Shown: positions 1 through 35,236 of the stretch, one piece after another
Position numbering within the stretch: the stretch's first letter is position 1
How the letters are laid out: every line of letters begins with the position of its first letter
Assembly: GCA_030650025.1 (NCBI GenBank)
Contig: JAUSEN010000016.1
Coordinates: 9,428 to 73,427 of the forward strand
DNA from: Candidatus Magasanikiibacteriota bacterium
GTDB lineage: Bacteria; Patescibacteriota; Patescibacteriia; Magasanikbacterales; GWA2-37-8
Direction of reading: 5' to 3'
Length of the DNA stretch: 64,000 bases
Notes under the pieces: generated by a model
Seen by the model: the letters and a program-made list of their open reading frames with translations, nothing else
What the model was told of the DNA's origin: nothing
Databases searched by the model: none
Program-made: the position numbers and the translations under genes

Positions 1-315
1 TGGCAGGCCATTGACCGCGATCATGCCGTCATAAACATGGGTGCCGCGCGCGCCATGGAAAGGAGTGTCATCGGTTTGGTCAGGGGTCGAGGTATAAGCG
101 GTGATAACGCCTTTATAGATAGCGTCTGGCTTTGGCTCCACATTTAAAAGCCTGGCGCCGGGGTCTTCAGAGATAGTAGTTTCAGTAGTAGAGATATAGT
201 TTACGCTAGAATTAGCCAAACTATAGCCATGATCAGCGGCAATAACAAGCCCGGGCGCTAAAACCTCTAATATTAGCGTAAATATGGTAAAGTATTGAGA
301 TATTTTTTTGGTCAT
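1..315 (-). CDS. 3D-domain (MltA/YocH-like) cell-wall protein, 5'-partial at window edge
   Basis: Minus-strand ORF starting at ATG 315-313 and running off the window. Translation has a signal peptide and the ...GVITAYTSTPDQTDDTPFHGARGTHVYDGMIAVNGLP 3D-domain-like signature. Confidence 0.5.
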   Translation of the reverse strand, partial: MTKKISQYFTIFTLILEVLAPGLVIAADHGYSLANSSVNYISTTETTISEDPGARLLNVEPKPDAIYKGVITAYTSTPDQTDDTPFHGARGTHVYDGMIAVNGLP

Positions 316-481
316 ATTTTTGGTCTTTTTCACCTGCCTGCCGGTAGGCAGGCCTGAATAAAGCGGTGGTTGCAAACTAAAAAGATACTCGACTAGAGTA
401 TCTATTAAATTCGCAACGCATAAGTATACCATAAACAGCCCTTTTTGTCAAGAGTCCGCTGGTGCGTTATAATAGCGTTCT

Positions 482-3352
482 ATGAGATGGCTAGGATTAA
501 AAAGGCGTCCGGCGCGCCGTGTTTATGGCGCTATTGGCACGGGTGTTCCCCAATACAAACGCCGGTTTAAGGCGCCGCGTTTTAAAATTCCGTGGCGGCG
601 GCTTTTGGTTTTGGCTTCGGTGGCCGCGGCCTTTTGTTTTGTGTTTGGCACGGGCGTGGTTTTGTGGGTGAGCCGCGATTTGCCTGACCCTAATAAACTT
701 AAAGAGCGTCAAGTAGCGGAAAGCACTAAGATTTATGACCGCACGGGCACGCATCTTTTATATGAAGTTTACCAAGATCAAAAAAGAACGATTGTGCCGC
801 TCGACCAGATTTCGCCTTTGGTAGTGAAGGCGACAATCGCGGTGGAAGACAAATATTTTTACGAACACAGAGGAATTCGCTTGGTAAGCATCGCGCGGGC
901 GGCGTTTAATAATTTAATCGGCCGTAAGCAGGGCGCGGGCGGAGCCTCCACCATGACACAACAGCTGATTAAGAAAACCGTGGTAGGTGACGAACGCCGC
1001 GGGCTCTCGGGACTGGGCCGTAAAATTAAAGAAGCCATTTTAGCGATTCGTTTGGAACGTAAATATACTAAAGATCAAATTGTTCAGCTTTATTTGAACG
1101 AGATTCCATATGGCTCCACTAACTACGGCGTGGAAGCGGCGGCGCAAACCTATTTTCGCAAAAGCGCCAAAGACGTGACACTAGCGGAAGCCGCCACGCT
1201 CGCCGCCATGATTAACCGCCCGAGTTTTTATTTAAATAATCGAAATGCTTTACGCAATCGCCGCGATGTGGTTTTGCGGCTGATGCAAGAACAGGGGTAT
1301 ATAACTCTTGAGGAGAAAACCAGCGCGCAAAACGAGGCCTTGCGTTTATATAGCGGCGCTAATTTGAAAGATGCTCCGCACTTTGTTTTATATGTTAAAC
1401 AGCTGTTGGCCGACCAGTTTGGCGAAAGCGCGATTGACACCGGCGGCCTACGAGTAATTACCACGCTGGATTATGATAAGCAGAAATTAGCCGAGCAAAT
1501 TATTAAAGAACAAGGCGATAAGTACGCGAAAGAGTCTAACGCGGACAACGCGGCCTTAGTGGCGATAGACCCCCAGAGTGGGCAAATTCTGGCTTTAGTC
1601 GGCTCGCGCGATTATAACGACGATAAGATCGACGGCCAATTTAACGTGGCGGTGTCGGGGCGGCGCCAGCCGGGTTCAAGCTTTAAGCCTTTTGTTTATA
1701 CCTTGGCTTTTCAAAAAGGATATACGCCCGCGACCGTGGTGTATGATGTTCAGACTGACTTTGATTTACGGGATGGGAACCAGGTGTATAGCCCTAAAAA
1801 TTATGATGGGAAGGAACACGGCCTCGTGACATTTCGCTCGGCTTTGCAAGGGTCGCTTAATATTCCCGCGGTAAAAGTGCTGTATTTGGTGGGGCCGACC
1901 ACCACTATTGAGTTTGCCAAAAATTTTGGCTACACCACATTTGGTGATAGTAATTTGTATGGTTTGAGCTTGGTTTTGGGAGGAGCGGAAGTCAATTTAT
2001 TAGAACACACTAATGCTTACGCGACGCTCGCTAATAACGGCGGCCACTTCGCGCCCGAAGTAATTCTAAAAGTCACTAATGTTAAGGGCGAAGTTTTAAA
2101 AGAGTGGCAGGAGAGTGAACCGAGCATCGTAGTGGCGCCCGAGATCGCGGCCACGATTACTAATGTTTTAAGCGATGACGCGGCGCGGGGGTCTCTTTTT
2201 GGCACGCGCGGTAATTTAACTTTGCCAGATCGCGCTGTGGCCGCTAAAACCGGCACGACCAATGATAACAAAGACGCTTGGACGCTGGGGTATGTGCCGA
2301 GTTTGGCGGCGGGCGTTTGGGTTGGGAATACGGCTCCGAAGCCAATGAAAGGCGGAGGCAATGCTTTGGCTGGGAAGATTTGGAATTTATTTATGCGGGG
2401 GGCTTTGGCTTCCACGACGCCAGATCAATTTTTGGCGCCGCCAAGCAACGACGCGACTAAGCCAGCCTTGCGCGGGTATGTGGGCGGAATTAGGCTCCCG
2501 ATTAATAAAATCACAGGTAAGATTGCTATTTCTTCAACACCCGAGGCGCTTATTGAGGCGCGGATATATTTGCCCCAACATGATATTTTGCATTATGTGA
2601 ATAAAGATGACCCGCGTGGCCCGGTGCCGAGCGACCCATACCAGGATGGCCAATACCAGAATTGGGAGAATGCTTTGATTGATTGGGTGAGTCGAGAGGC
2701 GGGGAAGGGACGGCTTATGAGCCTGCAAGATCCGCCTACCGAGTATGATGACAGCACGGCCAATGAATTTTCGCCGACCATAAAAATTTTAGCGCCAACT
2801 AGTAACCAGGTGTTTAACAGCCGCCAGCTTAATATCAGTGTCGCGGCCGGGGCGCCGCGCGGAGTGGCGAGCGTAATTTATTCGCTTGATAGCCAAACCA
2901 TCGGCGAGTCTAAGCAGTACCCATTTAACTTGGATTATTACATGACGGCGTTGCCACCGGGCGAGCATGTGCTTAAAGCGGTCGCGACTGACGAAGAGGG
3001 CGCGGCCGGGAGCGACCAATTGAATTTTTATCTGCGCGCGGATTATGACACGCCGAACTTCGATTGGCTAGACCAGTCGCCGCTTAATTTGACAGCCGAG
3101 GATTTCCCTCGAGCGATGCTTTTGAAGCCATATCAGTGGGATAATATTAAAGATATTCAAATTTATTTAAAAACTGATATAACCGAGAGAGCTATTTTTA
3201 ATTTTAATCATGCCGAGGACAAGGTAGTGAATGGCCAGCTGATGTTTACTTGGCGCAAGAGCCCGGGGTTCGGGAGCCACACTTTGCGGGCGGTTTTGAC
3301 AGATAAAGACGGACGTAAGATTGAAAAGGTGCTCAATATTGAAGTGAAATAA
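482..3352 (+). CDS. class A penicillin-binding protein (transglycosylase/transpeptidase) with long C-terminal extension
   Basis: N-terminal TM segment; glycosyltransferase motifs (EDKYFYEHRGI, RKQGAGGASTMTQQL); transpeptidase SxxK (GSSFKPF) and KTG(T) motifs. About 250 aa of extra C-terminal Ig-like sequence. Confidence 0.9.
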   Translation: MRWLGLKRRPARRVYGAIGTGVPQYKRRFKAPRFKIPWRRLLVLASVAAAFCFVFGTGVVLWVSRDLPDPNKLKERQVAESTKIYDRTGTHLLYEVYQDQKRTIVPLDQISPLVVKATIAVEDKYFYEHRGIRLVSIARAAFNNLIGRKQGAGGASTMTQQLIKKTVVGDERRGLSGLGRKIKEAILAIRLERKYTKDQIVQLYLNEIPYGSTNYGVEAAAQTYFRKSAKDVTLAEAATLAAMINRPSFYLNNRNALRNRRDVVLRLMQEQGYITLEEKTSAQNEALRLYSGANLKDAPHFVLYVKQLLADQFGESAIDTGGLRVITTLDYDKQKLAEQIIKEQGDKYAKESNADNAALVAIDPQSGQILALVGSRDYNDDKIDGQFNVAVSGRRQPGSSFKPFVYTLAFQKGYTPATVVYDVQTDFDLRDGNQVYSPKNYDGKEHGLVTFRSALQGSLNIPAVKVLYLVGPTTTIEFAKNFGYTTFGDSNLYGLSLVLGGAEVNLLEHTNAYATLANNGGHFAPEVILKVTNVKGEVLKEWQESEPSIVVAPEIAATITNVLSDDAARGSLFGTRGNLTLPDRAVAAKTGTTNDNKDAWTLGYVPSLAAGVWVGNTAPKPMKGGGNALAGKIWNLFMRGALASTTPDQFLAPPSNDATKPALRGYVGGIRLPINKITGKIAISSTPEALIEARIYLPQHDILHYVNKDDPRGPVPSDPYQDGQYQNWENALIDWVSREAGKGRLMSLQDPPTEYDDSTANEFSPTIKILAPTSNQVFNSRQLNISVAAGAPRGVASVIYSLDSQTIGESKQYPFNLDYYMTALPPGEHVLKAVATDEEGAAGSDQLNFYLRADYDTPNFDWLDQSPLNLTAEDFPRAMLLKPYQWDNIKDIQIYLKTDITERAIFNFNHAEDKVVNGQLMFTWRKSPGFGSHTLRAVLTDKDGRKIEKVLNIEVK

Positions 3353-3595
3353 GAAATCGTTGGGTTTGGTAACGATCCATTGACAAAATGGGTATTTTAT
3401 GGTATGATAATGCGTTCGAAGGGTTGTTTTTAAGCCTTTCGAATGAAGCTGTAGTTCTTTACAATTTAGACAATTTGACCATTGAAATTAGCAGTTTTCC
3501 TACCGGGAACAAAGTTTTGTAATCATACAAATCTTTTTCCCCGGTAGGACTCGTCTTGAGTTCTCCGTGCGGCTTCCAGCAGGAGGAAGAACGTC

Positions 3596-4510
3596 ATGAC
3601 CAAGACCTGGTTTGAGGGATTCAGCAAGGCGGCCATCTTGGCCGCGACCCTGCTCGTGGGGTTCACGAGCGCGGGGTGCGAGGAGAGGAAGGCTTCTCTC
3701 CTCATCACCATGACCTTCGATCCGTCGGTCTCCGAGGAGACGAGGGTCGAGGTCCGGCAGGTTGGAACGGTTCTCCGCCTCGCCGTGTCCGGCGTCGAGG
3801 AGTTGGCCGGCGATGGCAAGCTCGAGAGCCAGTCGCTCGACACGGACAAGCAGACCCTCCGGTATCGCCCGCTCGTCCAGAGCGGTCGTCTCAACTTCCA
3901 TATGGTGTTTTACAGTGGAAGGGATGTCGCGGTCCCGCTGATCTTCGGGCGGGGAGCGGGCGACATCCAGGCCGGCATCGAAGTGCCGGTCGCGGTCGTC
4001 CTCTTCCCCTGTGCAGGGGATCAAACAAACTGCCCGGGGAAGATTCCGGACAAGAAGTGCACTCGTGACGACGAGTGCAACCCGGGCTTCTCCTGCGATG
4101 TGCCGAGCGGTCGGTGCCTGCAGAAGCAGGACCAGCCGGACGCGGCCGCGCCCGTCGACATGGCCACGCCGCCGGATCTCACCCCGATCCCGGATCTCCA
4201 GATCGAGATCGAGAAGGTCTTCCGGGTGATCAAGGCCGGATCCGCAGTATGTTGCGAGATCCGCGATGTCCGGGGCAATTGGCTCGAGGACATCAAGATC
4301 GCGGACGGAACCGAGATCAAAAACCCTAAGGCGAAGTACTGTTTTCCCTTCGCCAAGGGGCTCGACATCACCGGCCGGTGCAACTTGCCGGAGGCGGTCA
4401 TCGCCCTCGGCCAGGGGCGTGACGGGTGCGTCAAGAAGGGAGGTCGCATCGACACCCCCAGCTTCAACTGGACGGAGGGGGGGATCGCGGACGACTGCAG
4501 TCAGAAGTAG
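3596..4510 (+). CDS. Cys-rich lipoprotein, hypothetical, encoded in a high-GC island
   Basis: Lipobox LVGFTSAGC after a signal peptide; strong SD (caggaggaag) 6 nt upstream. GC of about 65% and GC3-rich codons, unlike the flanking genes. Confidence 0.55.
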   Translation: MTKTWFEGFSKAAILAATLLVGFTSAGCEERKASLLITMTFDPSVSEETRVEVRQVGTVLRLAVSGVEELAGDGKLESQSLDTDKQTLRYRPLVQSGRLNFHMVFYSGRDVAVPLIFGRGAGDIQAGIEVPVAVVLFPCAGDQTNCPGKIPDKKCTRDDECNPGFSCDVPSGRCLQKQDQPDAAAPVDMATPPDLTPIPDLQIEIEKVFRVIKAGSAVCCEIRDVRGNWLEDIKIADGTEIKNPKAKYCFPFAKGLDITGRCNLPEAVIALGQGRDGCVKKGGRIDTPSFNWTEGGIADDCSQK

Positions 4511-4654
4511 CTGGCCCGAACCGCCGCGGGCCGGTCGTAGTAGCCTTCTCGCCTAGTACGTACGAAGAGCGAGAAGACCCCCAAACCTCCTCGCTCCTTA
4601 TGCCCGCAAATATTGTGGTTATAAGGAGTGAGGTTTGGGTGGTAAATTCTAATA

Positions 4655-4690
4655 TTAAAATAACCCGCCTCATCGGCGGGTTATTTTAAT
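4655..4690. terminator. bidirectional intrinsic terminator (aacccgcc-tcat-cggcgggtt + T tract) after ruvB
   Basis: Perfect GC hairpin at 4662-4682 flanked by A and T tracts, lying between convergent genes. Confidence 0.55.
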
Positions 4691-4692
4691 AG

Positions 4693-5736
4693 TTATAATA
4701 GAGTTTGGGCTTGGGGAGCAGGAAAGCCGAGGTGCCGATACGCGGCCGGGGTAGCTTTGCGGCCGCGGGCCGTGCGCTCTAAAAAGCCCATTTGTAATAA
4801 AAATGGTTCGTAGACTGTTTCAATTGTGTCCATTTCTTCGCCAATGGCCGCGGCTAAGGTATTAAGGCCGACCGGGCCGCCCTGAAATTTTTCGATTAAG
4901 GTAGTAAGAAGGCGGCGGTCAATTTCGTCTAAACCAAATTCGTCCACGCCCAGCATACCAAAGGCCTCGCTGGCAATATTTTTAGTAATAGCTCCGGTGC
5001 CTTTAATATCCGCTACGTCACGAATACGTTTAAGAAGGCGGTTAGCAATCCGCGGAGTGCGGCGCGCGCGCGAGGCAATGGCGGCGGCCGCGTCCGGCTC
5101 CAGCGGGGATTGTAAAATTTGCGCGTTGCGGTGAATGATTTTTTCAATGTCAGGGGTTTCGTAAAAATTTAGGTGGTAAGTGTGGCCAAACCGATCGCGC
5201 AGAGGCCCGGAGAGGAGGGAGAGCTTCGTGGTAGCGCCAATAAGCGTAAAACGATTTAGGGGCATGCGGATTGTTCGGGCGGCCGGGCCTTTGCCTAAAA
5301 TAATATCAAGCGAATAATCTTCGAGCGCGGGGTATAGTATTTCTTCGATAGTTTTATTCAAACGGTGGATTTCGTCGATAAACAAAACCTCGCCTTCTTG
5401 GAGGTTAGAGAGAATGGCCGCGAGGTCGCCAATTTTTTCTAGGGCTGGCCCCGAGGTTACTTTAATTCCGGCTTGCATCTCGCGGGCAATAATGTGGGCG
5501 AGCGTGGTTTTGCCAAGGCCCGGGTTGCCGTAGAGAAGAACATGTTCCAGCGGTTCGGACCGTTTTTGGGCGGCGGCAATACTAATACCCAGATTTTGTT
5601 TAATCTGTTCTTGGCCCACAAAATCTTGGAGTTCGCGAGGGCGGAGGGTGACGTCTAAAATTAGCTCGTCAGATTGCTCGGCGGGTTCCACCACACGCTC
5701 CTCATTACTTTCTGGATTTTGATTTTCTTCAGTCAT
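4693..5736 (-). CDS. ruvB: Holliday junction branch migration helicase RuvB
   Basis: Walker A LLYGNPGLGKTTLAHIIA and RuvB-typical N and C domains across the full-length translation. Confidence 0.9.
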   Translation of the reverse strand: MTEENQNPESNEERVVEPAEQSDELILDVTLRPRELQDFVGQEQIKQNLGISIAAAQKRSEPLEHVLLYGNPGLGKTTLAHIIAREMQAGIKVTSGPALEKIGDLAAILSNLQEGEVLFIDEIHRLNKTIEEILYPALEDYSLDIILGKGPAARTIRMPLNRFTLIGATTKLSLLSGPLRDRFGHTYHLNFYETPDIEKIIHRNAQILQSPLEPDAAAAIASRARRTPRIANRLLKRIRDVADIKGTGAITKNIASEAFGMLGVDEFGLDEIDRRLLTTLIEKFQGGPVGLNTLAAAIGEEMDTIETVYEPFLLQMGFLERTARGRKATPAAYRHLGFPAPQAQTLL

Positions 5737-5834
5737 AAATGATATAGTAGTATCAGCTTAACAATAAAATGGTCTTTAGTAAAGATTCACAAGTGAGGCA
5801 GGCAATCGGTATTTGTTAATAAAAAAAAGAAAGT

Positions 5835-6311
5835 ATGAATTTATTTGAACAGCGTGACAACGAATACAGCCAATCGATTAATGCGGAAGGGAGGGAAAGG
5901 CAGGAAGAGCAAAAAGAAAAGCAGGCCGAAGAGGTCGAGAAAAAGATGGCCGCGCGCGAGCGCTTCGAGGTTACTGGCAAGGAAATCAAAAATACCAAAC
6001 AGCAAATCCAAAATATTATTGCCAATATGCAGCAGGTAGTTAAGGCGGTGGCAGCTATCCGGGCCCAGCTTAATATTGCCCACGACGAAGACGATATTCC
6101 CTCGGTCAAGCGCGACCAAGTGGCGCTTAAGGCCTTAGAAAAGAAATTATCGGGTTTGCGTAGCGAGCTGATTGGTTTACGCTCCGCGCTCTTGGCCGAG
6201 GAGTCTAAGGCCATAGCCGCTGCCCACCCGGCCCTTGAGGCCAGCGAGGTTATGCGCATAGCCGAGGGCCGTGTTACCGAGTTGTTTGCCCAGTTTGGTT
6301 TGGTGGAGTAA
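5835..6311 (+). CDS. hypothetical coiled-coil protein
   Basis: Charged, heptad-like composition in the 158-aa ORF; no recognizable catalytic motif. Confidence 0.4.
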   Translation: MNLFEQRDNEYSQSINAEGRERQEEQKEKQAEEVEKKMAARERFEVTGKEIKNTKQQIQNIIANMQQVVKAVAAIRAQLNIAHDEDDIPSVKRDQVALKALEKKLSGLRSELIGLRSALLAEESKAIAAAHPALEASEVMRIAEGRVTELFAQFGLVE

Positions 6312-6323
6312 AATATCAGTATT

Positions 6324-6515
6324 ATGAACCCTAATACTATTTATCATTGTGATGGCGGTTGCGCGGCGCTTGCGGCTGCGCCCACCACGTGTGCCTCGCC
6401 TGGCTGCCCGGGTTATGGCGAAGCACTTGGTGCGTATATACAATGCAGTCGGTGTGTAGCGGCCCACGAACGGGATCAAAAAATGCACTGGTGCGAACAG
6501 TGCGAACAAGTTTAA
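6324..6515 (+). CDS. small Cys-rich (zinc-ribbon-like) protein
   Basis: 63 aa with about 10 Cys arranged as CxxGC ... CxxC ... CxxC pairs. Confidence 0.35.
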   Translation: MNPNTIYHCDGGCAALAAAPTTCASPGCPGYGEALGAYIQCSRCVAAHERDQKMHWCEQCEQV

Positions 6516-6540
6516 TTTATACACTATCTTTGAGAAAAAT

Positions 6541-6579
6541 AAAAATTGGTCCCGACGTTGCATCGGGACCAATTTTTTG
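6541..6579. terminator. bidirectional intrinsic terminator
   Basis: aaaaattggtcccga-cgttgca-tcgggaccaatttttt: a 15-bp perfect stem with A tract 5' and T tract 3', sitting between the small ORF and the tRNA-Leu. Confidence 0.65.
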
Positions 6580-6581
6580 TG

Positions 6582-6663
6582 TGCCCAGAGCGGGGGTCGA
6601 ACCCGCATGCCTTACGGCACAGGATTTTAAGTCCTGCGTGTATACCAGTTTCACCACCTGGGC
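6582..6663 (-). tRNA. tRNA-Leu(UAA), type II
   Basis: Manual fold of the reverse complement: acceptor gcccagg/cctgggc, anticodon stem cagga/tcctg, loop cTTAAaa, long variable arm, T arm gggttcgacccc; CCA not encoded. Confidence 0.8.
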
Positions 6664-6672
6664 AAGTTTTAT

Positions 6673-7062
6673 TTAATTCAAATCGGGCCGACGTTTAATG
6701 GCCTTAGCGAGTTTTTTATCAAAGGTAATTACTGGATAGAAACTAGAGAGAAATAATAGGGCCGCGTCTACAAAGGATAAGCCCGGGTGGGGGGATTGAT
6801 AGTAGAATTTTACGAGTTTTGTGAATATTTCTTCATCCGCGCTCCAGAGACGCGCCCCCGTTGCATTCAACCCGCGCTCAATAAACAGATTAGCGGTGGC
6901 CTTGCCACGATTTTGCGTAAGCACGGTGCACACTTCCGCGATTACGAATTGAGGGAGAAATATATCGTCTTTTATATCAGCCACCGTAATTTCCGCGGCG
7001 CGGTGTTGTGAGTCTTCTTCGTTGAAGAGCGCTACCCAGACACTGGAATCAAGGATCGTCAT
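6673..7062 (-). CDS. vapC: PIN-domain toxin VapC
   Basis: 129 aa. N-terminal MTILDSSVWVA... is typical of PIN domains; acidic residues are spaced as in VapC; the ORF overlaps the upstream antitoxin gene by 4 bp. Confidence 0.75.
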   Translation of the reverse strand: MTILDSSVWVALFNEEDSQHRAAEITVADIKDDIFLPQFVIAEVCTVLTQNRGKATANLFIERGLNATGARLWSADEEIFTKLVKFYYQSPHPGLSFVDAALLFLSSFYPVITFDKKLAKAIKRRPDLN

Positions 7063-7298
7063 ACGCCGTAAACGATTTTATCTATATTTTTGCTCAAGTT
7101 TGGGTCGCCGCCCTTAAAACGGATGGCGAATAAATCGTTTAGGGTGTATTTTTTGCGGTTAGGCGTCGCCACTGGCTCAATGCGAAAAATCGGTTTGGAG
7201 TATTTTACAACCGTAAAAGATTGGCCGCGCGCCGTTGCCCGAGCAATGCCGTGCAGATCGCGATATAATTTTTTGACGCCGATGATGGTTGGTTCCAT
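7059..7298 (-). CDS. Phd/YefM-type antitoxin
   Basis: 79 aa; the pattern KKLYRDLHGIARATARGQSFTVVKYSKPIFRIEPV resembles Phd/YefM; it is translationally coupled to the PIN toxin. Confidence 0.6.
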   Translation of the reverse strand: MEPTIIGVKKLYRDLHGIARATARGQSFTVVKYSKPIFRIEPVATPNRKKYTLNDLFAIRFKGGDPNLSKNIDKIVYGV

Positions 7299-7478
7299 AA
7301 TAAGTAAGCTTGAAATTATAAAAAGGTTAAATTTAAGTCTAACTTTAGTTTAACTTATTATGTTATTATTGTCAACCCCCTCGATTTTGCTCGGGGTTGA
7401 CCTTGAGTGGAATCGAAAGGTCAAGGCCGAGCCTCTGGCTAATAGCCAGGCCGCGCTCCAATATGGTATACTGCTGGT

Positions 7479-9275
7479 ATGCATAATAGGGGGCAGAATG
7501 GTTTTAGCTTAGTTGAAGTCATCGTGGCGGTGGCCGTGTTTGTGCTGTTTGCTCTTGGGGTTTACGGCGCGATAAATAGTATTTTGGTGATAGCGCGCGA
7601 GTCGCGCCTTAAAGTTGCTGTGGCTGGCGTGTTAAGCCAGCAAATGGAAATAATTCGTAGCGTGCCATATGACAGCGTCGGGACAATTAATGGCCTACCG
7701 AGCGGGGTGCTTTCAGCTACTTCTACGATTACCGATGGCGGCTTGGTTTTTAATGTCATTACTACAGTTAGTTTTACGGATGATGCCTTTGATGGAACCG
7801 CGACCAGTACACCCGCTGACACCAACCCGGCGGATTATAAAGTGGTGACCGTGGCAGTTAGGTGCGCCTTTTGCGTAAGCCAACAGCCAGCGGTGGGGCG
7901 CACGTTCGTGGCTCCTCCGGTTTTCGAGGGAGCGCCCGAGACCGGGTCGCTCTTTATTCATGTGGTGGACGCGGAAGGCTGGCCAGTACCTGGCGCCAGC
8001 ATCAGTATCAGAAATGATTTTGTTAATCCGCCAGTCGCTGTTGACGCGGTGACGGACATGGACGGCTGGTATACGCTATTAAGCGCTCCGACCAGCACTC
8101 TTGGCTATAATATTACTACCACTAAAAGTGGTTATTCGCTGGATTATACAGCGGCCTCTTCTACAAACAACCCCGCGCCCACCAAATTGCCGGCCAGCGT
8201 TAGTGTGGGGGCGGCCACGACCATCAGTTTCGCGATTGATTTAACAGCGACTCTAAATGTTAAGACAGTGGACAATGTCTGCGCGGGGGTTAGCGCCGTG
8301 CCTTTTGCGCTCTCTGGCCAGAAGTTGATTGGTTCTTTGCCAATGGTTTATAAATTTTATCAAGATTTTACTACTGATGGCGGTGGCGACAAAACTTTCA
8401 GCGCGCTCGAGTGGGATAATTATTCCATAATGTTAAATAGCGCTAATTATGACGTGGCGGGCACGGTGCCGCTTCTGCCTTTCCCACTTTTACCGGGGGC
8501 AGCGCAGAACGCTACGGTCGTAGTGGCTCCGCATTCTAATAATTCTTTATTGGTAATTGTTAAGGACGCGGTAACGGGGTTGCCGTTGGCGGACGCCACG
8601 GCCAGGCTAACTAAGTCTGGTTACGACCAATCCCTAGTGACTGGCCTTGGGTTTGTGGGGCAAACGGATTGGTCGCTCGGGAGCGGGCAAGAAAGTTTTG
8701 CCAACGCGCAAAAATATTTTTCGGATAGCGGCAGCTTGAATGTGGCCGGATCACCGGGCGATGTGGTGCTTAAATCGAGCGGAAATAATTCTTTTTTATC
8801 GTCCGGGTGGCTCGAATCCTCTACGTTTGACGCGCATACCAGCGACATTGCTTACGCTCATTTATATATAACGCCCACGGCGCAACCGCATAAAGCGGGA
8901 GCGACCCCGCTTCAGTTTCAGCTGGCCACGAGCAATTCGAGCTCGCCGGCGGTGTGGAATTTTTTGGGTTCAGATGGTTCAGCCAATACTTTTTATACCG
9001 CTACGAATACGGTGATAACATCGCTCCACAACGACCAACGTTATTTGCGTTACCGCGCCTTTTTGTCCACTGTTGATAATAAGTATACGCCCATACTCTC
9101 GGATTTTTATTATACATTCACGAGCAGTTGTACGCCTCCGGGCCAGGCATTTTTTACTAATTTAGCGGCCGCCACCTACACTTTGACTGTTTCTAAAACC
9201 GGGTATCAAACTAACAGCGGCTCTTTGAATATAGTGGGCAATGGGCAGGCGGTAGTTAATTTATCGCCCAGCTAG
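7479..9275 (+). CDS. large type IV pilin-like protein (prepilin leader MHNRGQNG|FSLVEV)
   Basis: Class III signal peptide with G|FSLVEV and a hydrophobic alpha-1 helix, followed by about 560 aa of Thr/Ser-rich beta-rich sequence. An extended -10 (tggtatact) lies at about 7455-7463. Confidence 0.75.
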   Translation: MHNRGQNGFSLVEVIVAVAVFVLFALGVYGAINSILVIARESRLKVAVAGVLSQQMEIIRSVPYDSVGTINGLPSGVLSATSTITDGGLVFNVITTVSFTDDAFDGTATSTPADTNPADYKVVTVAVRCAFCVSQQPAVGRTFVAPPVFEGAPETGSLFIHVVDAEGWPVPGASISIRNDFVNPPVAVDAVTDMDGWYTLLSAPTSTLGYNITTTKSGYSLDYTAASSTNNPAPTKLPASVSVGAATTISFAIDLTATLNVKTVDNVCAGVSAVPFALSGQKLIGSLPMVYKFYQDFTTDGGGDKTFSALEWDNYSIMLNSANYDVAGTVPLLPFPLLPGAAQNATVVVAPHSNNSLLVIVKDAVTGLPLADATARLTKSGYDQSLVTGLGFVGQTDWSLGSGQESFANAQKYFSDSGSLNVAGSPGDVVLKSSGNNSFLSSGWLESSTFDAHTSDIAYAHLYITPTAQPHKAGATPLQFQLATSNSSSPAVWNFLGSDGSANTFYTATNTVITSLHNDQRYLRYRAFLSTVDNKYTPILSDFYYTFTSSCTPPGQAFFTNLAAATYTLTVSKTGYQTNSGSLNIVGNGQAVVNLSPS

Positions 9276-9343
9276 CAGCCGCGCTTCAAAGGTCGTTCGC
9301 GACATCGCGAGAGACACTGCGCGGCATGATTTTGTCAAATCAT

Positions 9344-15181: not shown

Positions 15182-15871
15182 ATGAGTTTGAAAAAATTAT
15201 TACTAGGGGCGAGCCTCGGAATGATGGTGTTAAGTTTGGCAATGCCAACCGCTCCGGCTCTAGCTGATAACAAGTTTTGTTTTTGCGGAACTGATTTAAA
15301 AAAATTTCCGGAGACGGGCGATTTGAATGATTCGCAAAAATATAATTCTTGGTGCTTTCCTAACCAGATCCCCGAAGAAAAGTGCACGGCTACAATTTAT
15401 AAAGCCGAGGCACGGGCCCAGGCGCAGTTAGTGAAGTGCGACGTTTTTACGACGCAACAACAATGCAAACAGGCGGAAACAGACTGGAATACGGCATTTA
15501 CCATACTCTATAATTCGCGCCAGAACGAGGTTTTTAAAAATACGATGCAGGGGTCGGGCGGGCGAGCCTTGCCGGATTGCGTTTTGAAGGACGATTTGAC
15601 CGAAGACTGCCGCGATATCACGGTCTTGGTCGCTTTGGTAGTTAATTATGGGCGGGTAAGCCTTGGCATTATTGGGGCGTTTGCTTTGTGCTTTTTTATT
15701 TACGGCGGGTTTATTTTAATAATGTCGAGCGGCAACCCGGAAAAGGTTAAGAAAGGCACGGACACGATGCTGGCCGCGCTAATCGGCCTTTTTATCGCCT
15801 TTGTGGCTTACTTATTTATCCGCTTTTTGGGCACGGCCATTGGCATCAAAGAGCAATTTAGGTTGTTTTAG
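15182..15871 (+). CDS. VirB2/TrbC-like pilin-module protein, paralog 1 (signal peptide + Cys-containing ectodomain + 2-TM C-terminal module)
   Basis: C-terminal ...FIYGGFILIMSSGNPEKVKKGTDTMLAALIGLFIAFVAYLF matches the module shared by 11 paralogs in this window. Confidence 0.6.
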   Translation: MSLKKLLLGASLGMMVLSLAMPTAPALADNKFCFCGTDLKKFPETGDLNDSQKYNSWCFPNQIPEEKCTATIYKAEARAQAQLVKCDVFTTQQQCKQAETDWNTAFTILYNSRQNEVFKNTMQGSGGRALPDCVLKDDLTEDCRDITVLVALVVNYGRVSLGIIGAFALCFFIYGGFILIMSSGNPEKVKKGTDTMLAALIGLFIAFVAYLFIRFLGTAIGIKEQFRLF

Positions 15872-15875
15872 TTTT

Positions 15876-16868
15876 ATGATGAAGAAGTTTTTGATTTTAT
15901 TAGCGGTGCTAGGAGCTTTTTTATTATACCGGCCTTCTCCGGCGCAGGCGGCGGCGTGTGTTTGCGACCAAGGGGTACAAGAAGGAGTTCCAACAAATAA
16001 CTCTTGCCTTACCTTGACCCAGAAAGGCAATTTGACTGGTTGCAAATGGGTAGAGCAGGAGACAAATTATTGCGTTTGTAAAACCGTCATTGCCTCGCCA
16101 GACGGCCTTAATGATGCGTCGTGCACGCAAAAACTGTATTATGCAAGCGCATTTTACCAGGGGAGATTACTAGGAATAGCTTGCGACGCTGACTTTAACC
16201 CCGCCCTGCAAGTTGGCTGTGATGATTTTTGCGAATCCTTGGGGCCCAATTCTAAAAAAATATATTGCGGCAACGAAGCGGGGAAAGATGAAGTCGATAA
16301 TACGCCGATTAACCAAGCCAAGGGCTGTGCGCCCATTCACTGCTGGTGTGGCAACCCGGCTGGGTATTGCACGCACGATACCGTAAAGCCCAATGGCGGC
16401 AGTTTTTACGACAGACCTTCTTGCAATAAATATTGCGATGATAAAAATGTGAATGGCGAGACGGGGTGGAAGTCCACTCACTGGGATGATAAGTATACTA
16501 ATTATTATAAAATTCCGGTGTCTAATAACGGCTGTTTGTACGAGATCCCCCGGCCAAAAATTAGTCCTTATGATTTTACCGGTAATATAAAGCTGAACGC
16601 CATAAACTTAAACCCGCTTACCAAATTTCGCGGACCCCAGGATTTTCTCGGCAATGCTATTCGCGTAATTCTGTCTCTCATTGGCGCCTTGGTGTTGGTC
16701 ATGTATATTTATGGCGGGCTCCTCTGGATGACAGCGGCGGGCAATAGCGAACAAACCGGCAAAGCCAAACAGATTTTGGTGTGGTCCACGCTCGGGGTGG
16801 CGGTCATGCTCTCGAGCTATGTCTTGGTAACATTCTTGTTTAGAGACGTGCTTAAGTTAACGATTTAA
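15876..16868 (+). CDS. pilin-module paralog 2 with ~280-aa Cys-rich ectodomain
   Basis: Start reassigned to MMKKFLILLAVLG (15876). About 26 Cys in the ectodomain; C-terminal IYGGLLWMTAAGNSEQTGKAKQIL... module. Confidence 0.6.
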   Translation: MMKKFLILLAVLGAFLLYRPSPAQAAACVCDQGVQEGVPTNNSCLTLTQKGNLTGCKWVEQETNYCVCKTVIASPDGLNDASCTQKLYYASAFYQGRLLGIACDADFNPALQVGCDDFCESLGPNSKKIYCGNEAGKDEVDNTPINQAKGCAPIHCWCGNPAGYCTHDTVKPNGGSFYDRPSCNKYCDDKNVNGETGWKSTHWDDKYTNYYKIPVSNNGCLYEIPRPKISPYDFTGNIKLNAINLNPLTKFRGPQDFLGNAIRVILSLIGALVLVMYIYGGLLWMTAAGNSEQTGKAKQILVWSTLGVAVMLSSYVLVTFLFRDVLKLTI

Positions 16869-16870
16869 TT

Positions 16871-17785
16871 ATGAAGAAATTTTTGGTAGTAGCGGTGATG
16901 GCACTCGGCATAGCCGGAATTTGGGGCGTAGCGACTGCCCGCGCGCAAGTAGGCTGCGCGGATAACCGCGGGTGCGCGCCAGGCGATGTTTGTATTAATA
17001 ATGTTTGCAAACCGGCAGTGGCCGATGGCCAGGTGTGTGTTAACAGCCAAGAGTGTTTGTCGGGGCGGTGCGTGAGTGGAATTTGCAAATCACCGGGCCA
17101 AGTGGGCGAGGCCTGTACCGAGGATGGCGAGTGTGTTACGAACAATTGTTTTGACGGTTTGTGCGGCCAGAAAGCCGAATGCAACGCGGATGGTGATTGC
17201 GGCGCGGGGAGGACGTGCACGCAGAATAAGTGCGTGGAAACATTTTCGACCGAGCCGCCGGCTCCGCCTCCGTCAGGGGATAGTGGCGGGCTAAGCCAGT
17301 GCCAAGATGAAAAAGGCTGCCCGGCTGGGCAAGTCTGTGTTGACCATGTCTGCCGCGTGCCTGTGGGGACTTCTGATTCTGGCAAACCGGTAGTAAATAG
17401 GTATTGTTTAAAAGACGACATGTGCCAGCCGATGGATCCGGTGAACGGCTGCCCGGCTGGCTGGGCGCCTAAACCCAAGTGCCCCTGCCCGAATAGCGAC
17501 AGCGGCGCGGAGTGCATTCCGCTCGAGAATCCGCTCGCCGGCAACACCGTGGATATTTTTGGAATCTTCGGCCGGATCTTGCGCGTGGCGCTTGGCTTAA
17601 TTGGTTCCCTTACGCTTTTAATGCTGGTGTGGGGAGGGTTCCAATGGATGATGTCGGGCGGGAGCCCGGAGCGCATCAAGAAGGGTACGGACACGATGCT
17701 CTGGGCCGCGATTGGAGTGGTACTAGTATTCGCCAGCTATTTCATTTTGAGTAATTTTGTAGACTATTTAACTGGCGTTCAATAG
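16871..17785 (+). CDS. pilin-module paralog 3 with five tandem 4-Cys modules
   Basis: Repeats such as CADNRGCAPGDVCINNVC, CVNSQECLSGRCVSGIC and CTEDGECVTNNCFDGLC; C-terminal VWGGFQWMMSGGSPERIKKGTDTML module. Confidence 0.6.
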   Translation: MKKFLVVAVMALGIAGIWGVATARAQVGCADNRGCAPGDVCINNVCKPAVADGQVCVNSQECLSGRCVSGICKSPGQVGEACTEDGECVTNNCFDGLCGQKAECNADGDCGAGRTCTQNKCVETFSTEPPAPPPSGDSGGLSQCQDEKGCPAGQVCVDHVCRVPVGTSDSGKPVVNRYCLKDDMCQPMDPVNGCPAGWAPKPKCPCPNSDSGAECIPLENPLAGNTVDIFGIFGRILRVALGLIGSLTLLMLVWGGFQWMMSGGSPERIKKGTDTMLWAAIGVVLVFASYFILSNFVDYLTGVQ

Positions 17786-30529: not shown

Positions 30530-32310
30530 GGTGCGTACCGCAAAAAGGTCGTTTTTTACGACCGCCACGTCCCCTGCACCAGAACGCTTCGCGTCCGGTT
30601 CAGGGCTTCGCAGTCTAGCTCTGGCTACTAGCGAAGCGCCACTCGGGACCTCTAGAAAATTGCGTAGCTTACACAAAAAACGATGTATATTGCTACAAAA
30701 TTTACTCGAGTTACTCCAAGTGGTTAAAAACCCCACCCATTTTATTGGGCCGCTTGGAAAAGCGGCTTTTATTATTTTGGTCGGCTCAGATCGGTGAGAC
30801 AGAGATTTCTCCCCGCTCTAGGCGGGTCGAAATGACAGTGCAGAGTGGACTGGCTGGTACTTTGACAATTCAGGCAAGCACCATGCACCACCATAAACCA
30901 CAAGGGTTTATGGCAAACAAGGGTGCATGGCTAAATAACCATGAACCACAAGGGTTCATGGCAAGATTAATGCTTATTTTAAACATCAAGGTCTGGTGTT
31001 TAAAATAATAAAGGGTAACTTCATAAACATGAATATTGTCATGAAAAATTATGAAGTCAACTCAACGTAAGCACCATTTGGTGTTTTCGTTGTGTGCAAT
31101 TTCAACAAGAGCATATGGTGGATGCCTAGACACTAAAAGATGAAGAAGGACGTTGCAAGGTGCGATAAGCCTCGGGGAGCTCCTAAGCAAGCTGTGATCC
31201 GGGGATTTCCGAATGGGGAAACCCGTTACAAAGAAATTTGTAACATCGTATACTGAATTCATAGGTGTACGAGGAAGACCTGGCGAAGTGAAACATCTCA
31301 GTAGCCAGAGGAAAATAAATCGAAGAGATTCCCTTAGTAGTGGCGAGCGAAAAGGGATCAGCCTAAACCTTATACATGTTGTTGCCGTAACAGATTGATC
31401 GCAAGGTTAATTATGAGCGGCAGTTTAAAGACGCAGGTCGTTGTGTATATGGTGTAATAAGACAATTACGCGTCCGCCCTGCGGCGGACGGTGAAAATGT
31501 GACTTTCCTAGTAGAACGCTCTGGAACGAGCGGCCGCAGAGGGTAAGAGCCCCGTACGCGAAAGGAGTCTATATAATCATGGTAGTTGTTCTTGAGTAGG
31601 GCGGAACTCGTGAAATTCCGTCTGAATTCGGGCCGACTATGGTCTAAGGCTAAATACTTTTAGTGATCGATAGTGGACTAGTACCACGAGGGAAAGGTGA
31701 AAAGTAGCCCGGTGAGGGCGATGAAATAGTATCTGAAACCATATGTTTACAAAGAGCGGAAGACCGGAGTACCCAGAATTATTCCCCCCTACGGGGGGAA
31801 TAATTCTGGGTCCTGGTCGACCGTGTTCCTATTGAAGAATGAGCCTGCGAGTGTGCTGTATGTCGTTGCTTAAACCCTTCTGGGGTGGAGGCATAGCGAA
31901 AGCGAGTCTTAACGGGCGTATATAATGGCATGCACATAACCCGAAACCGGGTGAGCTATCCATGACCAGGATGAACCCTTCCGAAAGGAAGGGGGAGGTC
32001 CGAACACACGAGCCGTGCAACACTCGGTGATGAGTTGTGGATGGGAGAGAAATTCTAATCGAACTCGGTGATAGCTGGTTCTCCTTGAAATAGTTTTAGG
32101 ACTAGCCTCGCGCGTTCCCTTTGGCGGTAGAGCACTGGATGAGACTCGGGTCCTTCGGGATACCAGTTTCAATCAAACTCCGAATGCCGAAGATTAAAAG
32201 CGCGGGAGTCAGACTGTGGGGGCTAAGCTCCATAGTCAAAAGGGAAACAGCCCTGATCGCCAGCTAAGGTCCCTAAATCCATATTAAGTGTGAAAGGTGG
32301 TGTTAACTCT

Positions 32311-32348
<38 letters not shown>

Positions 32349-33172
32349 TAAAGAAAGCGTAACAGCTCACTGGTCAAGAGTTTTCGCGCCGAAAATGTAC
32401 CGGGGCTAAATATGGTACCGAAGCTGCGAATTGGTAGATCCTCCGGGATTTACCTCTGGTAAAGGAGCGTTGGTAGCTGCGCTGAAGCCATAGCCGCGAG
32501 GCGTGGTGGAGTGCTACCAAGTGAGAATGCAGGCATGAGTAACAATAAGGGAAGTGAGAATCTTCCCCGCCGAAAATCCAAGGTTTCCTGGGCAACGAGA
32601 CTCGACCCAGGGTTAGTCGATCCTAAGGCCAGGCCGAAAGGCGTAACCGATGGAAGAGCAGGTTAATATTCCTGCACTTGGTATAGTTTGTTTGTTAGTG
32701 CGCATAGTGAAGCTGACAGCGTGTTTTGAATATACACGTTTCTTTACCCCGACGTGAAGTCGGGGCAGGGACGAAGATGAAGCCTTCGGGTGGAGTCAAC
32801 TGTCGGGGACGCTGTGCCTAGAAAAGCTAATAAACGTTAAGCTATATCAAACCGTACCGTAAACCGACACAGGTAGGTGAGTCGAGAAGACTAAGGCGTA
32901 CGAGAGAACCCTCTTTTAGGAACTCTGCAATACAGCGGCCGTAACTTAGGGATAAGGCCCGCCCCGATGTAAAAATCGGGGTTACAACAAAAGACGCACT
33001 GCGACTGTTTACCAAAAACACAGCTCCCTGCAAAAGCGCAAGCTGAAGTATAGGGAGTGATGCCTGGCCAGTGTCAGAACGTTAAGGCGAGAGGTTATCC
33101 GGTCATCCGACCGGAGAAGCCTTGAACTGAAGCGCTGATGAACGCCGGCGGTAACTATAACCGTCCTAAGGT

Positions 33173-33408
33173 AGCGGACTTGAGAAATCGAGCACGCTAG
33201 GATTGGGACGGATATAGCAAAAAGTAAACAATCATTAAAGATGAGCAGAGTCATCGAAATATTAACAGCCATTCAAAAAATGCTACCTTGCTTTGCAGTA
33301 ATGCAAAGAATAATCCGGTCATAGCTTATGAGAGACTATACGCTATGCTCCTCCGACGAAACTCGGAGGAAGAAGATTTAGTCCTTCGTCATTAAACAGG
33401 AAACGAAG
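33173..33408 (+). mobile_element. group I-like intron (ORF-less), inserted after the U of GGU|AGCG (E. coli ~L1931, helix 69/70 region)
   Basis: The conserved ccgtcctaaggt.agcgaaattccttgtcgg is interrupted by 236 nt; the 5' exon ends in U and the insert ends in G. Confidence 0.6.
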
Positions 33409-33430
33409 AGCGAAATTCCTTGTCGGGTAA

Positions 33431-33682
33431 ACCAAGAACTTGCCCCCTGGTCGAGTAATTGACCTTGAAGCAATAGCTGTATCGGTGGAACCCATAAAAA
33501 ATCGTGCAGATTAATTATGGGCAATACCGAGGGAAGTCCTCCCAAAATGGAGTGACCCCGTAGAGACTACACGCTGTCTCCCGAGTTATTCGGGATGAAG
33601 ATATAGTCCGATCCTGCCGAGTAATTGGCAGCCCTACGAAAATCAAAAATCTAAAATCATAAATCGAAAATTCGTAGATGGA
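33431..33682 (+). mobile_element. second 23S insertion (~252 nt) within GGGUAA|GUUCCGACC (E. coli ~L1951-1953); intron-like, ORF-less
   Basis: Conserved flanks gggtaa and gttccgacctgcacgaatgg are contiguous in E. coli; boundaries are uncertain by 1-2 nt. Confidence 0.55.
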
Positions 33683-34573: not shown

Positions 34574-34636
34574 GTACGATGTCGGCTCATCGCATCCTGG
34601 GGGTGAAGAAGCTCCCAAGGGTTTGGCTGTTCGCCA

Positions 34637-34688
<52 letters not shown>

Positions 34689-35124: not shown

Positions 35125-35236
35125 GTCTTGGTGGCTTTAAGCGAAGGGGTCACACCCGATCCCATCCCGAACTCGGCAGTTAAGCCCTTCTGCGCTGATG
35201 ATAGCCCAAGTGGCAAAAGTAGGCCGCCGCCAGGAC
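35125..35236 (+). rRNA. 5S rRNA
   Basis: cccgatcccatcccgaactcggcagttaagc matches the 5S loop B/C consensus (cf. E. coli cccacctgaccccatgccgaactcagaagtgaaac); terminal helix gtcttggtggc / gccgccaggac. Confidence 0.8.

What the first reader, a model, noticed from the sequence alone, without database searches (positions are those of the whole stretch)
3500..4560. High-GC island encoding a Cys-rich lipoprotein in a moderate-GC genome
About 1 kb reads at roughly 65% GC with GC3-biased codons, against a 45-50% background. It carries one SD-led ORF (lipobox LVGFTSAGC; CxxxC/CC motifs) plus many spurious overlapping ORFs on both strands, which is typical of GC skew. The edges carry inverted repeats that do not match each other: cctaccggga/tccccggtagg at 3500-3550, and a ~22-bp IR at 4576-4650. 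This looks like a recent horizontal acquisition (or an assembly chimera) from a high-GC donor.
Basis: seen in the sequence. Interest (0 to 1): 0.5.

Follow-up and report, generated by a model that had tools for sequence, protein, structure and literature searches.

The report
Recently acquired foreign lipoprotein gene
A one-gene, roughly 1-kb stretch of high-GC DNA encoding a cysteine-rich surface lipoprotein lies between two housekeeping genes of an ultra-small (CPR, Magasanikbacteria) bacterium; it looks like a recent gene transfer from a high-GC, probably myxobacterial, donor, which is a clean but ordinary case.

Summary
Window 3560-4560 is 63.9% GC against 47.2% for the rest, the most extreme 1-kb stretch in 64 kb. 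The SD-led ORF 3596-4510 (304 aa) is a real gene: GC1/2/3 = 0.61/0.46/0.85, a PROSITE-type lipobox (TLLVGFTSAG|C28), and 12 further Cys. The claimed CxxxC motif does not exist. Both edge hairpins are real.

HGT is well supported:
- The contig is Candidatus Magasanikbacteria. Its closest available relative keeps the same gene order, but its PBP1A and ruvB stop codons are only about 25-30 bp apart, with no island.
- The only detectable homologues among billions of proteins are four small lipoproteins. They share 28-34% identity over the N-terminal ~190 aa and lie on 63-67% GC contigs.
- On the one such contig tested, every named ProB relative is Polyangia or Myxococcales.
- The homologues' GC3 (0.85-0.87) equals the island's, so the gene has not ameliorated.

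An independent Logan assembly is 100% identical across both junctions, and both flanking genes are intact, so a chimera is unlikely. No integrase, transposase, attC site or target duplication was found. A consensus host-type promoter at 3380-3408 lies upstream.

The protein's function is unknown; a surface β-sandwich binding protein is the best guess. A second high-GC single-gene islet lies at 36693-37343.

The parts
482..3352 (+). Left flanking host gene: class A penicillin-binding protein (PBP1A-type), intact to its stop codon
   Evidence: Pfam Transgly 1.7e-55, Transpeptidase 3.3e-28, Big_7. 62% aa identity to the L002 orthologue over residues 6-956.
3380..3408 (+). Sigma-70-type promoter-like site with extended -10 (TTGACA-17-TATGAT, TG at -15), in AT-rich host-like spacer (33% GC)
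   Evidence: 11 of 12 hexamer matches. It is the only match in 64 kb to TTGACA-N14-TGnTATRAT, with 0 expected by chance. A near-identical promoter is seen in the related patescibacterial locus L003. Activity is inferred, not shown.
3413..3445 (+). 13-bp hairpin in the putative 5' leader
   Evidence: RNA fold of 3410-3600: -64.7 kcal/mol, z = -5.3.
3498..3549 (+). Left-edge imperfect inverted repeat (24-nt arms, 88% complementary), ending where GC starts to rise
   Evidence: Unique in the window.
3550..4580 (.). High-GC foreign segment (about 64% GC)
   Evidence: Tetranucleotide correlation is -0.06 with the host and 0.67 with Polyangia contigs, the lowest host correlation of all 1-kb windows.
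3581..3586 (+). Shine-Dalgarno AGGAGG, 9 nt upstream of the ATG
   Evidence: Read directly from the sequence.
3596..4510 (+). CDS of 304 aa. Residues 1-28: signal peptide and lipobox (Cys28). About 31-140: β-sandwich domain. 139-174: six-Cys module. About 177-202: Pro/Asp 'PDL' linker. About 203-304: C-terminal six-Cys domain.
   Evidence: GC1/2/3 = 0.61/0.46/0.85. Lipobox and Cys map. Identical to MDO8626431.1, a hypothetical protein of Candidatus Magasanikbacteria. Homology to P0004-P0007 over residues 16-202. AF2 model with pLDDT about 70 for residues 31-140 only.
4510..4535 (+). GC-rich hairpin (GGCCCG...CGGGCC) immediately after the stop codon, inside the high-GC segment and so probably donor-derived
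4544..4575 (+). Short hairpin (CTTCTCGC / GCGAGAAG)
   Evidence: (I10).
4580..4639 (+). Right-edge long imperfect hairpin (about 27 bp with a 3-nt bulge), where GC falls back to host level
   Evidence: (I2, I18). Unique in the window. Does not fit the attC R''/R' consensus.
4653..4691 (.). Perfect 17-bp-arm hairpin flanked by A- and T-runs: a bidirectional intrinsic-terminator-like element shared with ruvB
   Evidence: (I3).
4693..5736 (-). Right flanking host gene: ruvB, intact
   Evidence: Pfam RuvB_N 7.7e-76, RuvB_C, AAA_lid_4. 74% aa identity to the L002 orthologue.

Best explanation
A single foreign gene of about 1.0 kb (roughly 3550-4580) was recently inserted by horizontal transfer into the short spacer between the convergent housekeeping genes PBP1A and ruvB of a Candidatus Magasanikbacteria (CPR/Patescibacteria) genome. 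The donor had about 64-69% GC and a codon usage like that of Polyangia (Myxococcota), which is the only lineage tied to any detectable relative of the protein. The gene is intact and has kept the donor's composition, so the event is recent.

The gene is most likely expressed. It has its own SD, a strong host-type promoter lies 190 nt upstream, and the ruvB terminator lies downstream. It would be exported through Sec and lipidated at Cys28; the genome encodes LspA. The likely product is a disulfide-rich protein on the cell surface, with a β-sandwich domain, a Cys-knot, a PDL linker and a second Cys domain. A binding or adhesion protein is the best guess.

Shown: the composition shift, the coding signature, the lipobox, absence from the syntenic locus of a relative, homologues only on high-GC contigs (one assigned to Polyangia), and identity of two assemblies.

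Inferred: the direction and recency of transfer, illegitimate recombination (possibly after DNA uptake) as the integration route, expression, lipidation and function.
For: Composition:
- 63.9% against 47.2% GC, z = 4.7.
- GC3 is 0.849, against 0.507 +/- 0.089 for 49 host ORFs.
- Per-codon log-likelihood is -0.90 under a Polyangia-contig model and -1.29 under the host model. PBP1A and RuvB give the reverse.
- Tetranucleotide correlation is -0.06 with the host and 0.67 with Polyangia contigs.

Phyletic pattern:
- The 5.8-billion-protein search finds only the protein itself.
- The exhaustive 1.84-billion-representative search adds only P0004, plus two repeat-driven hits.
- A profile search adds P0005-P0007.
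- A profile of P0004-P0007 built without the island protein scores it at 38 bits, E = 1.3e-4 at whole-library size. The best of 2000 shuffles scores 7.4 bits.
- Those genes lie on contigs of 63-67% GC and have GC3 of 0.85-0.87.
- ProB on contig L009 has 62-67% identity to proteins whose only names are Polyangia or Myxococcales.

Synteny:
- The Baikal Magasanikbacteria MAG (L002) keeps DksA-LspA-ComM-h213-PBP1A-RuvB-h158.
- Its PBP1A and ruvB stops are about 25-30 bp apart, against 1340 bp here.

Assembly and signals:
- The Logan contig from SRR13727527 is 100% identical over window 1-9307.
- Promoter, SD and terminator are present.
- LspA (Peptidase_A8) lies about 6.3 kb upstream of the island on the same contig.
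Against: - No read-level data were available, so coverage and read-pair continuity over the junctions are untested. The NCBI and Logan assemblies may derive from the same reads.
- The homologues are distant (28-34% identity, N-terminal two thirds only). There are only four of them, so no phylogeny can show nesting inside a donor clade, and the true donor is unidentified.
- Only one homologue-bearing contig (L009) was taxonomically placed, and by a single gene.
- No mobility gene, tRNA target or convincing target-site duplication explains how the DNA got in.
- Expression, lipidation and function are all unverified.
- The AF2 model is poor outside residues 31-140 (mean pLDDT 43).
Confidence: 0.82

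Rival explanations
1. Assembly chimera: a fragment of a high-GC organism's genome was mis-joined into the Magasanikbacteria contig.
For: The sequence comes from a metagenome-assembled genome. The composition jump is abrupt and coincides with hairpins. No read data could be examined.
Against: - It would need two mis-joins that excise exactly one complete gene with its SD and place it in an intergenic spacer without damaging either flanking gene.
- The edge sequences are unique in the window.
- An independent per-run assembly (Logan) gives the identical sequence across both junctions.
Confidence: 0.06
2. Cargo of a small mobile element, such as an integron-type gene cassette with the 4580-4639 hairpin as its attC, or an IS200/IS605-like or PATE element bounded by hairpins. 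It would still be HGT, but with a defined vehicle.
For: - A single ORF of about 1 kb is followed by a 60-nt imperfect hairpin with a bulge and AAC...GTT at its base.
- Hairpins sit at both GC boundaries.
Against: - The R''/R' boxes CCCAAAC/GTTTGGG miss the RYYYAAC/GTTRRRY consensus at 2 of 7 positions.
- A strict attC-type scan finds nothing anywhere in the 64 kb.
- No Phage_integrase, transposase or TnpA/TnpB Pfam hit is on record for any gene from 10 kb upstream to 4.8 kb downstream.
- The two hairpins share no sequence and have no other copies.
- The only flanking direct repeat is a 10-mer with one mismatch, no better than 13 other chance families in the same 1.5 kb.
Confidence: 0.07
3. Ancestral patescibacterial gene whose GC content was driven up locally by selection or biased gene conversion.
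For: The neighbouring host T4SS-pilin-like Cys-rich gene at 16871-17785 is also somewhat GC-enriched, at 56%.
Against: - The gene is absent from the syntenic spacer in L002.
- No patescibacterial homologue exists among billions of proteins.
- The shift is concentrated at third codon positions and matches the homologues' GC3.
- It extends into the 3' untranslated hairpin at 4510-4535.
Confidence: 0.03
4. Not a protein gene but a GC-rich structured non-coding RNA, the ORF being a by-product of high GC.
For: GC-rich islands in lower-GC genomes often mark structured RNAs. Many overlapping ORFs are open.
Against: - There is strong 3-base periodicity, GC3 0.85 > GC1 0.61 > GC2 0.46, in exactly the SD-led frame.
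- The lipobox, the β-domain and the linker are conserved with protein homologues.
- No Rfam match reaches any gathering score.
Confidence: 0.01

Closest known systems
Horizontally transferred genes and genomic islands in Patescibacteria, as surveyed in groundwater MAGs (mSystems 2025, PMC12455944)
   Same: A compositionally atypical, lineage-specific gene in a streamlined CPR genome. That survey reports hundreds of islands and individually transferred genes in Patescibacteria.
   Different: - That survey found most transfers to be intra-Patescibacteria and not recent, with 24% mean divergence.
- Its table of cross-phylum donors does not list Myxococcota.
- Here the gene is unameliorated, a singleton, and points to a high-GC Polyangia-like donor.
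Uncharacterised small lipoprotein family of Polyangia-type contigs (P0004-P0007, 233-243 aa)
   Same: They share the signal peptide with an invariant G-C lipobox, an N-terminal β-domain of about 110 aa, and a Pro/Asp 'PDL' linker. Identity is 28-34%, and the family profile scores the island protein at 38 bits.
   Different: - The island protein has an inserted six-Cys module (139-174) and a different, longer, Cys-containing C-terminal domain.
- On the two longer homologue contigs (L009, L011) the gene is followed by a secreted, tail-fibre-like protein of about 500 aa with a Peptidase_S74 domain. That partner is absent here.
β-sandwich secretin-pilotin lipoproteins ExsB (2yjl) and the Vibrio T2SS alternative pilotin (5wec)
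   Different: - The model is only moderately confident (pLDDT about 70).
- Sequence identity is 7-12%.
- Generic β-sandwiches (CBM20, FN3, Bacteroides adhesins) score nearly as well, and Foldseek finds nothing at E < 0.001.
- No secretin is known in this genome. This is a resemblance, not membership.

Membership tests
Horizontally acquired genomic islet | Composition (GC, GC3, codon usage, tetranucleotides) deviates significantly from the host genome | tested here: met
Horizontally acquired genomic islet | Absent from the orthologous, syntenic position in related genomes | tested here: met
   In L002 the PBP1A and ruvB stops are about 25-30 bp apart, within 8 kb of conserved gene order. Only one relative retaining this synteny was available.
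Horizontally acquired genomic islet | Closest homologues lie in a distant lineage whose composition matches the island | tested here: met
   Homologues occur only on 63-67% GC contigs. For L009, the named ProB relatives are all Polyangia or Myxococcales.
Horizontally acquired genomic islet | Phylogeny nests the gene inside the donor clade | not tested
   Only four distant homologues exist, too few for a meaningful tree.
Horizontally acquired genomic islet | Continuous read support across both junctions (not a chimera) | not testable with these tools
   Reads were not available. The indirect support is an identical independent Logan assembly.
Bacterial lipoprotein (Lgt/Lsp substrate) | N-terminal signal peptide ending in a lipobox with invariant Cys (PROSITE PS51257-type pattern) | tested here: met
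   TLLVGFTSAGC at residues 18-28. G27 and C28 are invariant across the homologues.
Bacterial lipoprotein (Lgt/Lsp substrate) | Host encodes the processing enzymes | tested here: inconclusive
   LspA (Peptidase_A8) is present about 6.3 kb upstream on the same contig. Lgt was not looked for, because the rest of the genome was not available.
Integron gene cassette | attC site with R'' RYYYAAC and R' GTTRRRY boxes | tested here: not met
   CCCAAAC/GTTTGGG fails at 2 of 7 positions. The strict scan gave 0 hits in 64 kb.
Integron gene cassette | Integron integrase or a neighbouring cassette array | tested here: not met
   No Phage_integrase hit on record among the genes of L001, which covers -10 kb to +4.8 kb. 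No second attC-like site.
IS200/IS605 or PATE element | TnpA/TnpB, or matching subterminal hairpins at both ends, and multiple copies | tested here: not met
   The hairpins are unrelated to each other and single-copy. No transposase domain nearby.
Polyangia small lipoprotein family (P0004-P0007) | Full-length architecture and the conserved downstream tail-fibre-like partner | tested here: not met
   Only residues 16-202 align. The C-terminal domain differs, and the partner gene is absent. The island protein is a distant relative sharing the N-terminal module, not a member.
Dickkopf_N / Myxococcus Cys-rich repeat modules | Score above the curated Pfam or NCBIfam cut-off | tested here: not met
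   Dickkopf_N scores 10.8 bits against a cut-off of 25. No NCBIfam hit at E <= 1.

The most novel reading that the evidence does not exclude
The islet, together with the second high-GC single-gene islet at 36693-37343, may record very recent and repeated DNA flow from a myxobacterial (Polyangia) partner into this Magasanikbacterium. That would point to a physical association, either episymbiont and host or prey and predator. The acquired surface lipoprotein would then be used for attachment to, or mimicry of, that partner's envelope. If so, it would be one of the few genomic clues to the unknown hosts of this CPR lineage.
Probability: 0.1. Interest if true: 0.6.

Novelty: new member of a known kind. 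Interest (0 to 1): 0.3.

Why it matters
Hosts and partners of most CPR bacteria are unknown. Recent cross-phylum transfers into their streamlined genomes are reported to be rare (PMC12455944). A fresh, unameliorated surface-protein gene with myxobacterial affinities gives a concrete lead: look for a near-identical copy and a co-occurring Polyangia genome in the same sample. It also gives a candidate attachment protein to test. Otherwise this is a textbook single-gene HGT islet encoding an uncharacterised protein, and its main practical value is as a well-controlled example that is not an assembly artefact.

Tried and rejected
- **Family searches.** Pfam, NCBIfam, PHROGs and PDB sequence searches of the 304-aa protein gave nothing above threshold.
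- **Phage and plasmid origin.** tblastn against 50,697 phage and 72,556 plasmid records found no match. An IMG/VR scan with the family alignment found none. A phage or plasmid origin is therefore unsupported.
- **Repeat-driven hits.** P0002 (13 stretches) and P0003 (6 stretches) in the exhaustive search are long repeat proteins matching short segments. I judged them repeat-driven and uninformative, although P0003 hints that the C-terminal domain may be Ig-like.
- **RNA families.** Rfam scans of the flanks and the whole window found no family for the leader or the hairpins.
- **Integron and IS models.** The attC, integron and IS200 models were rejected.
- **Target-site duplication.** The only flanking repeat is a 10-mer with one mismatch, at chance level. 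Aligning both flanks to the L002 spacer showed nothing decisive.
- **Closer relatives.** A metagenome scan for genomes retaining the PBP1A-ruvB junction returned only more distant ones.
- **Flank duplication.** The AT-rich flanks have no copy elsewhere in the window.
- **Second islet.** Plasmid and phage tblastn gave only hits at or below about 40% identity, the full-length ones 28-32%, mostly annotated gmk.

Full report
**1. The observation**

A 300-bp sliding profile shows GC rising from 0.39 at 3301-3600 to 0.62-0.66 across 3601-4650, then returning to about 0.50.
- Window 3560-4560 is 63.9% GC. The rest of the 64-kb window is 47.2%.
- Against all other 1-kb windows (mean 47.2%, sd 3.5%, maximum 58.1%) this is z = 4.7.
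- At 60-bp resolution the steps lie at about 3545-3560 and 4580-4600.

The ORF 3596-4510 (+) encodes 304 aa and is preceded by AGGAGG nine bases upstream. At least nine further ORFs of 50 aa or more overlap it on both strands, and one antisense frame has no stop at all across the gene. This is expected in GC-rich DNA.

The edge inverted repeats exist and are unrelated to each other. One is 3498-3521/3526-3549, with 24-nt arms at 88% complementarity. The other is 4580-4639, a stem of about 27 bp at -36.6 kcal/mol.

One detail of the finding is wrong. The protein has 13 Cys and a CC pair at 219-220, but no CxxxC or CxxC motif.

**2. It is a real protein-coding gene**

In the SD-led frame GC1/GC2/GC3 = 0.61/0.46/0.85, the canonical pattern for a gene from a genome of roughly 65% GC. 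The 49 long ORFs of the window have GC3 of 0.507 +/- 0.089.

The N-terminus (MTKTWFEGFSKAAILAATLLVGFTSAG|C) fits the PROSITE lipoprotein pattern. No Rfam family reaches its threshold. A structured-RNA reading is therefore rejected.

**3. Whose genome is it, and is the gene native?**

The protein is identical to MDO8626431.1, locus tag Q7K39_03160. This is a hypothetical protein of a Candidatus Magasanikbacteria MAG, on a 130-kb contig. The flanks are ordinary housekeeping genes, a class A PBP at 482-3352 and ruvB at 4693-5736 on the minus strand.

A scan of one genome per GTDB species with the PBP C-terminus found seven related loci. The closest is a Lake Baikal Magasanikbacteria MAG, L002, with 62% PBP and 74% RuvB identity.
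- L002 keeps the gene order DksA-LspA-ComM-h213-PBP1A-RuvB-h158.
- Its PBP1A and ruvB stop codons are only about 25-30 bp apart. Here they are 1340 bp apart.
- The island is thus a lineage-specific insertion into a conserved neighbourhood.

**4. Where are the relatives?**

- The word-indexed search of 5.8 billion proteins found only the protein itself.
- The exhaustive phmmer search of 1.84 billion cluster representatives added one credible hit, P0004 (240 aa). It also gave two long repeat proteins whose scores come from many short stretches.
- A profile search added P0005-P0007.

These four are small lipoproteins. They share with the island protein the lipobox (G27 and C28 invariant), a β-rich domain of about 110 aa, and a Pro/Asp 'PDL' linker. 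BLASTP gives 34% identity over 190 aa at E = 4e-14 pairwise.

A profile built from the four alone scores the island protein at 38 bits, E = 1.3e-4 for the whole library. The best of 2000 composition-preserving shuffles reaches 7.4 bits. The homology is therefore real but distant.

Their contigs have 63-67% GC, and the genes have GC3 of 0.85-0.87, the same as the island. On contig L009 the glutamate 5-kinase has 62-67% identity to many proteins. Every one that carries an organism name is Polyangia or Myxococcales.

Codon usage and tetranucleotides agree.
- The island fits a model built from the Polyangia-type contigs better than the host model (-0.90 against -1.29 per codon). PBP1A and RuvB do the reverse.
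- The island's tetranucleotide correlation is -0.06 with the host, the lowest of all windows, and 0.67 with the Polyangia contigs.

**5. Chimera?**

No reads could be examined. Three points argue against a chimera.
- A per-run Logan assembly of SRR13727527 contains an 18.6-kb contig that is 100% identical to window 1-9307, spanning both junctions.
- The insert is exactly one complete gene with its SD and a post-stop GC-rich hairpin. It sits in a spacer, and both neighbours are intact to their stop codons.
- The junction sequences are unique in the window, so there is no obvious repeat to cause a mis-join.

I put a chimera at about 6%.

**6. Anatomy of the flanks**

Upstream, in 33%-GC host-like spacer, lies TTGACA-17-TATGAT with an extended -10 TG, scoring 11 of 12.
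- It is the only match in 64 kb to TTGACA-N14-TGnTATRAT, with zero expected by chance.
- It closely resembles a promoter in the related patescibacterial locus L003.
- A leader of about 185 nt follows, with strong hairpins at 3413-3445 and 3498-3549 (z = -5.3).

Downstream there are four consecutive hairpins (z = -10.9).
- 4510-4535 is GC-rich and lies inside the foreign segment.
- 4544-4575 is a short hairpin.
- 4580-4639 lies at the GC boundary.
- 4653-4691 has perfect 17-nt arms between A- and T-runs. It is a bidirectional terminator-like element abutting the ruvB stop.

The inference is that the foreign ORF is transcribed from a host-type promoter and terminated at the shared terminator. 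This is not shown.

**7. Vehicle**

No vehicle was identified.
- No integrase or transposase domain is on record for any gene from 10 kb upstream to 4.8 kb downstream.
- The nearest tRNA is 2 kb away, beyond ruvB.
- The right hairpin has AAC...GTT at its base, but its boxes (CCCAAAC/GTTTGGG) miss the attC consensus at two positions. A strict attC scan finds nothing in the window.
- The two edge hairpins share no sequence and are single-copy. The only flanking direct repeat is at chance level.
- Phage, plasmid and IMG/VR searches are negative.

Illegitimate recombination of taken-up DNA is the default inference.

**8. The protein**

The architecture is as follows.
- Residues 1-28: signal peptide and lipobox.
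- About 31-140: β-sandwich.
- 139-174: C-x6-C-x8-C-x5-C-x5-C-x6-C.
- About 177-202: PDL linker.
- About 203-304: a domain with six more Cys.

The AF2 model, built from a five-sequence alignment, is credible only for residues 31-140, with pLDDT of about 70.
- Foldseek against PDB gives nothing at E < 0.001.

LspA is encoded on the same contig. The best functional guess is a lipid-anchored, disulfide-stabilised surface binding protein. This is weakly supported.

On the two longer homologue contigs (L009, L011) the homologue is followed by a secreted tail-fibre-like protein of about 500 aa with a Peptidase_S74 chaperone domain. That partner is not present here.

**9. Comparison with what is known**

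HGT into Patescibacteria is documented. A 2025 survey found hundreds of islands and transferred genes. Most transfers were between Patescibacteria and not recent, and its donor table has no Myxococcota (PMC12455944).

This case is a clean, apparently recent, cross-phylum single-gene example. It is a new member of a known kind, not a new kind.

**10. Verdict**

Interest is modest at 0.3. The more interesting reading is that this islet and a second high-GC islet at 36693-37343 mark an association with a myxobacterial partner. That reading remains possible but untested, at about 10%.

Noticed in passing
window 36693-37343 (+): A second high-GC single-gene islet: a 216-aa divergent guanylate-kinase-like protein. 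Pfam Guanylate_kin scores 2.7e-16, but the protein is far below the NCBIfam gmk equivalog cut-offs. It has 63% GC and GC3 of 0.79, and is the only other GC3 outlier among 49 ORFs. Tetranucleotide correlation is 0.28 with the host and 0.76 with Polyangia contigs. It lies between an HD-domain gene and a NUDIX gene and is also present in the Logan assembly. Full-length tblastn hits in plasmid and phage records are 28-32% identical (partial hits up to about 40%). The donor was not searched.
   Followed up: partly
window 31093-34959 (+), 33419-33631, 35127-35235: The 23S rRNA gene spans 3867 nt against a 2925-nt model. It contains a group I intron match (56 bits) and evidently further insertions. 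A 5S gene follows and no 16S is adjacent. This is typical of CPR genomes but worth recording.
   Followed up: no
window 15801-16868 and 16871-17785 (+): Two tandem genes encode Cys-rich secreted proteins, each ending in a T4SS_pilin (PF18895) membrane domain. The second also matches DUF7107 and, below its curated cut-off, the EB module, and is GC-enriched (56%, GC3 0.62).
   Followed up: partly
L009 5860-8804 and L011 161-2367 (Polyangia-type contigs): On both contigs the small-lipoprotein homologue is followed by a secreted protein of about 500 aa with a phage tail-fibre-like C-terminus (Peptidase_S74; PHROG tail-fibre hits down to 6e-26). On L009 it is preceded by a TPR protein. The neighbours are otherwise chromosomal-looking, and the function is unknown.
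   Followed up: partly
L001 1119-1707, 5468-6116 and 13078-13703 (the last is window 6673-7298): Three toxin-antitoxin-like pairs (PemK, Gp49/HTH, PIN) lie within 16 kb around the island. The Gp49/HTH pair, like the island, is absent from the syntenic Baikal relative L002, which suggests a locally plastic neighbourhood.
   Followed up: partly
window 3380-3560 (+): The strongest consensus promoter in the window is followed by a highly structured AT-rich leader of about 185 nt with two long hairpins, before the foreign ORF. It matches no Rfam family. It could be a remnant or an independent small RNA rather than just a 5' UTR. A 44-aa ORF (3388-3522) called in the Logan annotation has no SD and is probably spurious.
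   Followed up: partly
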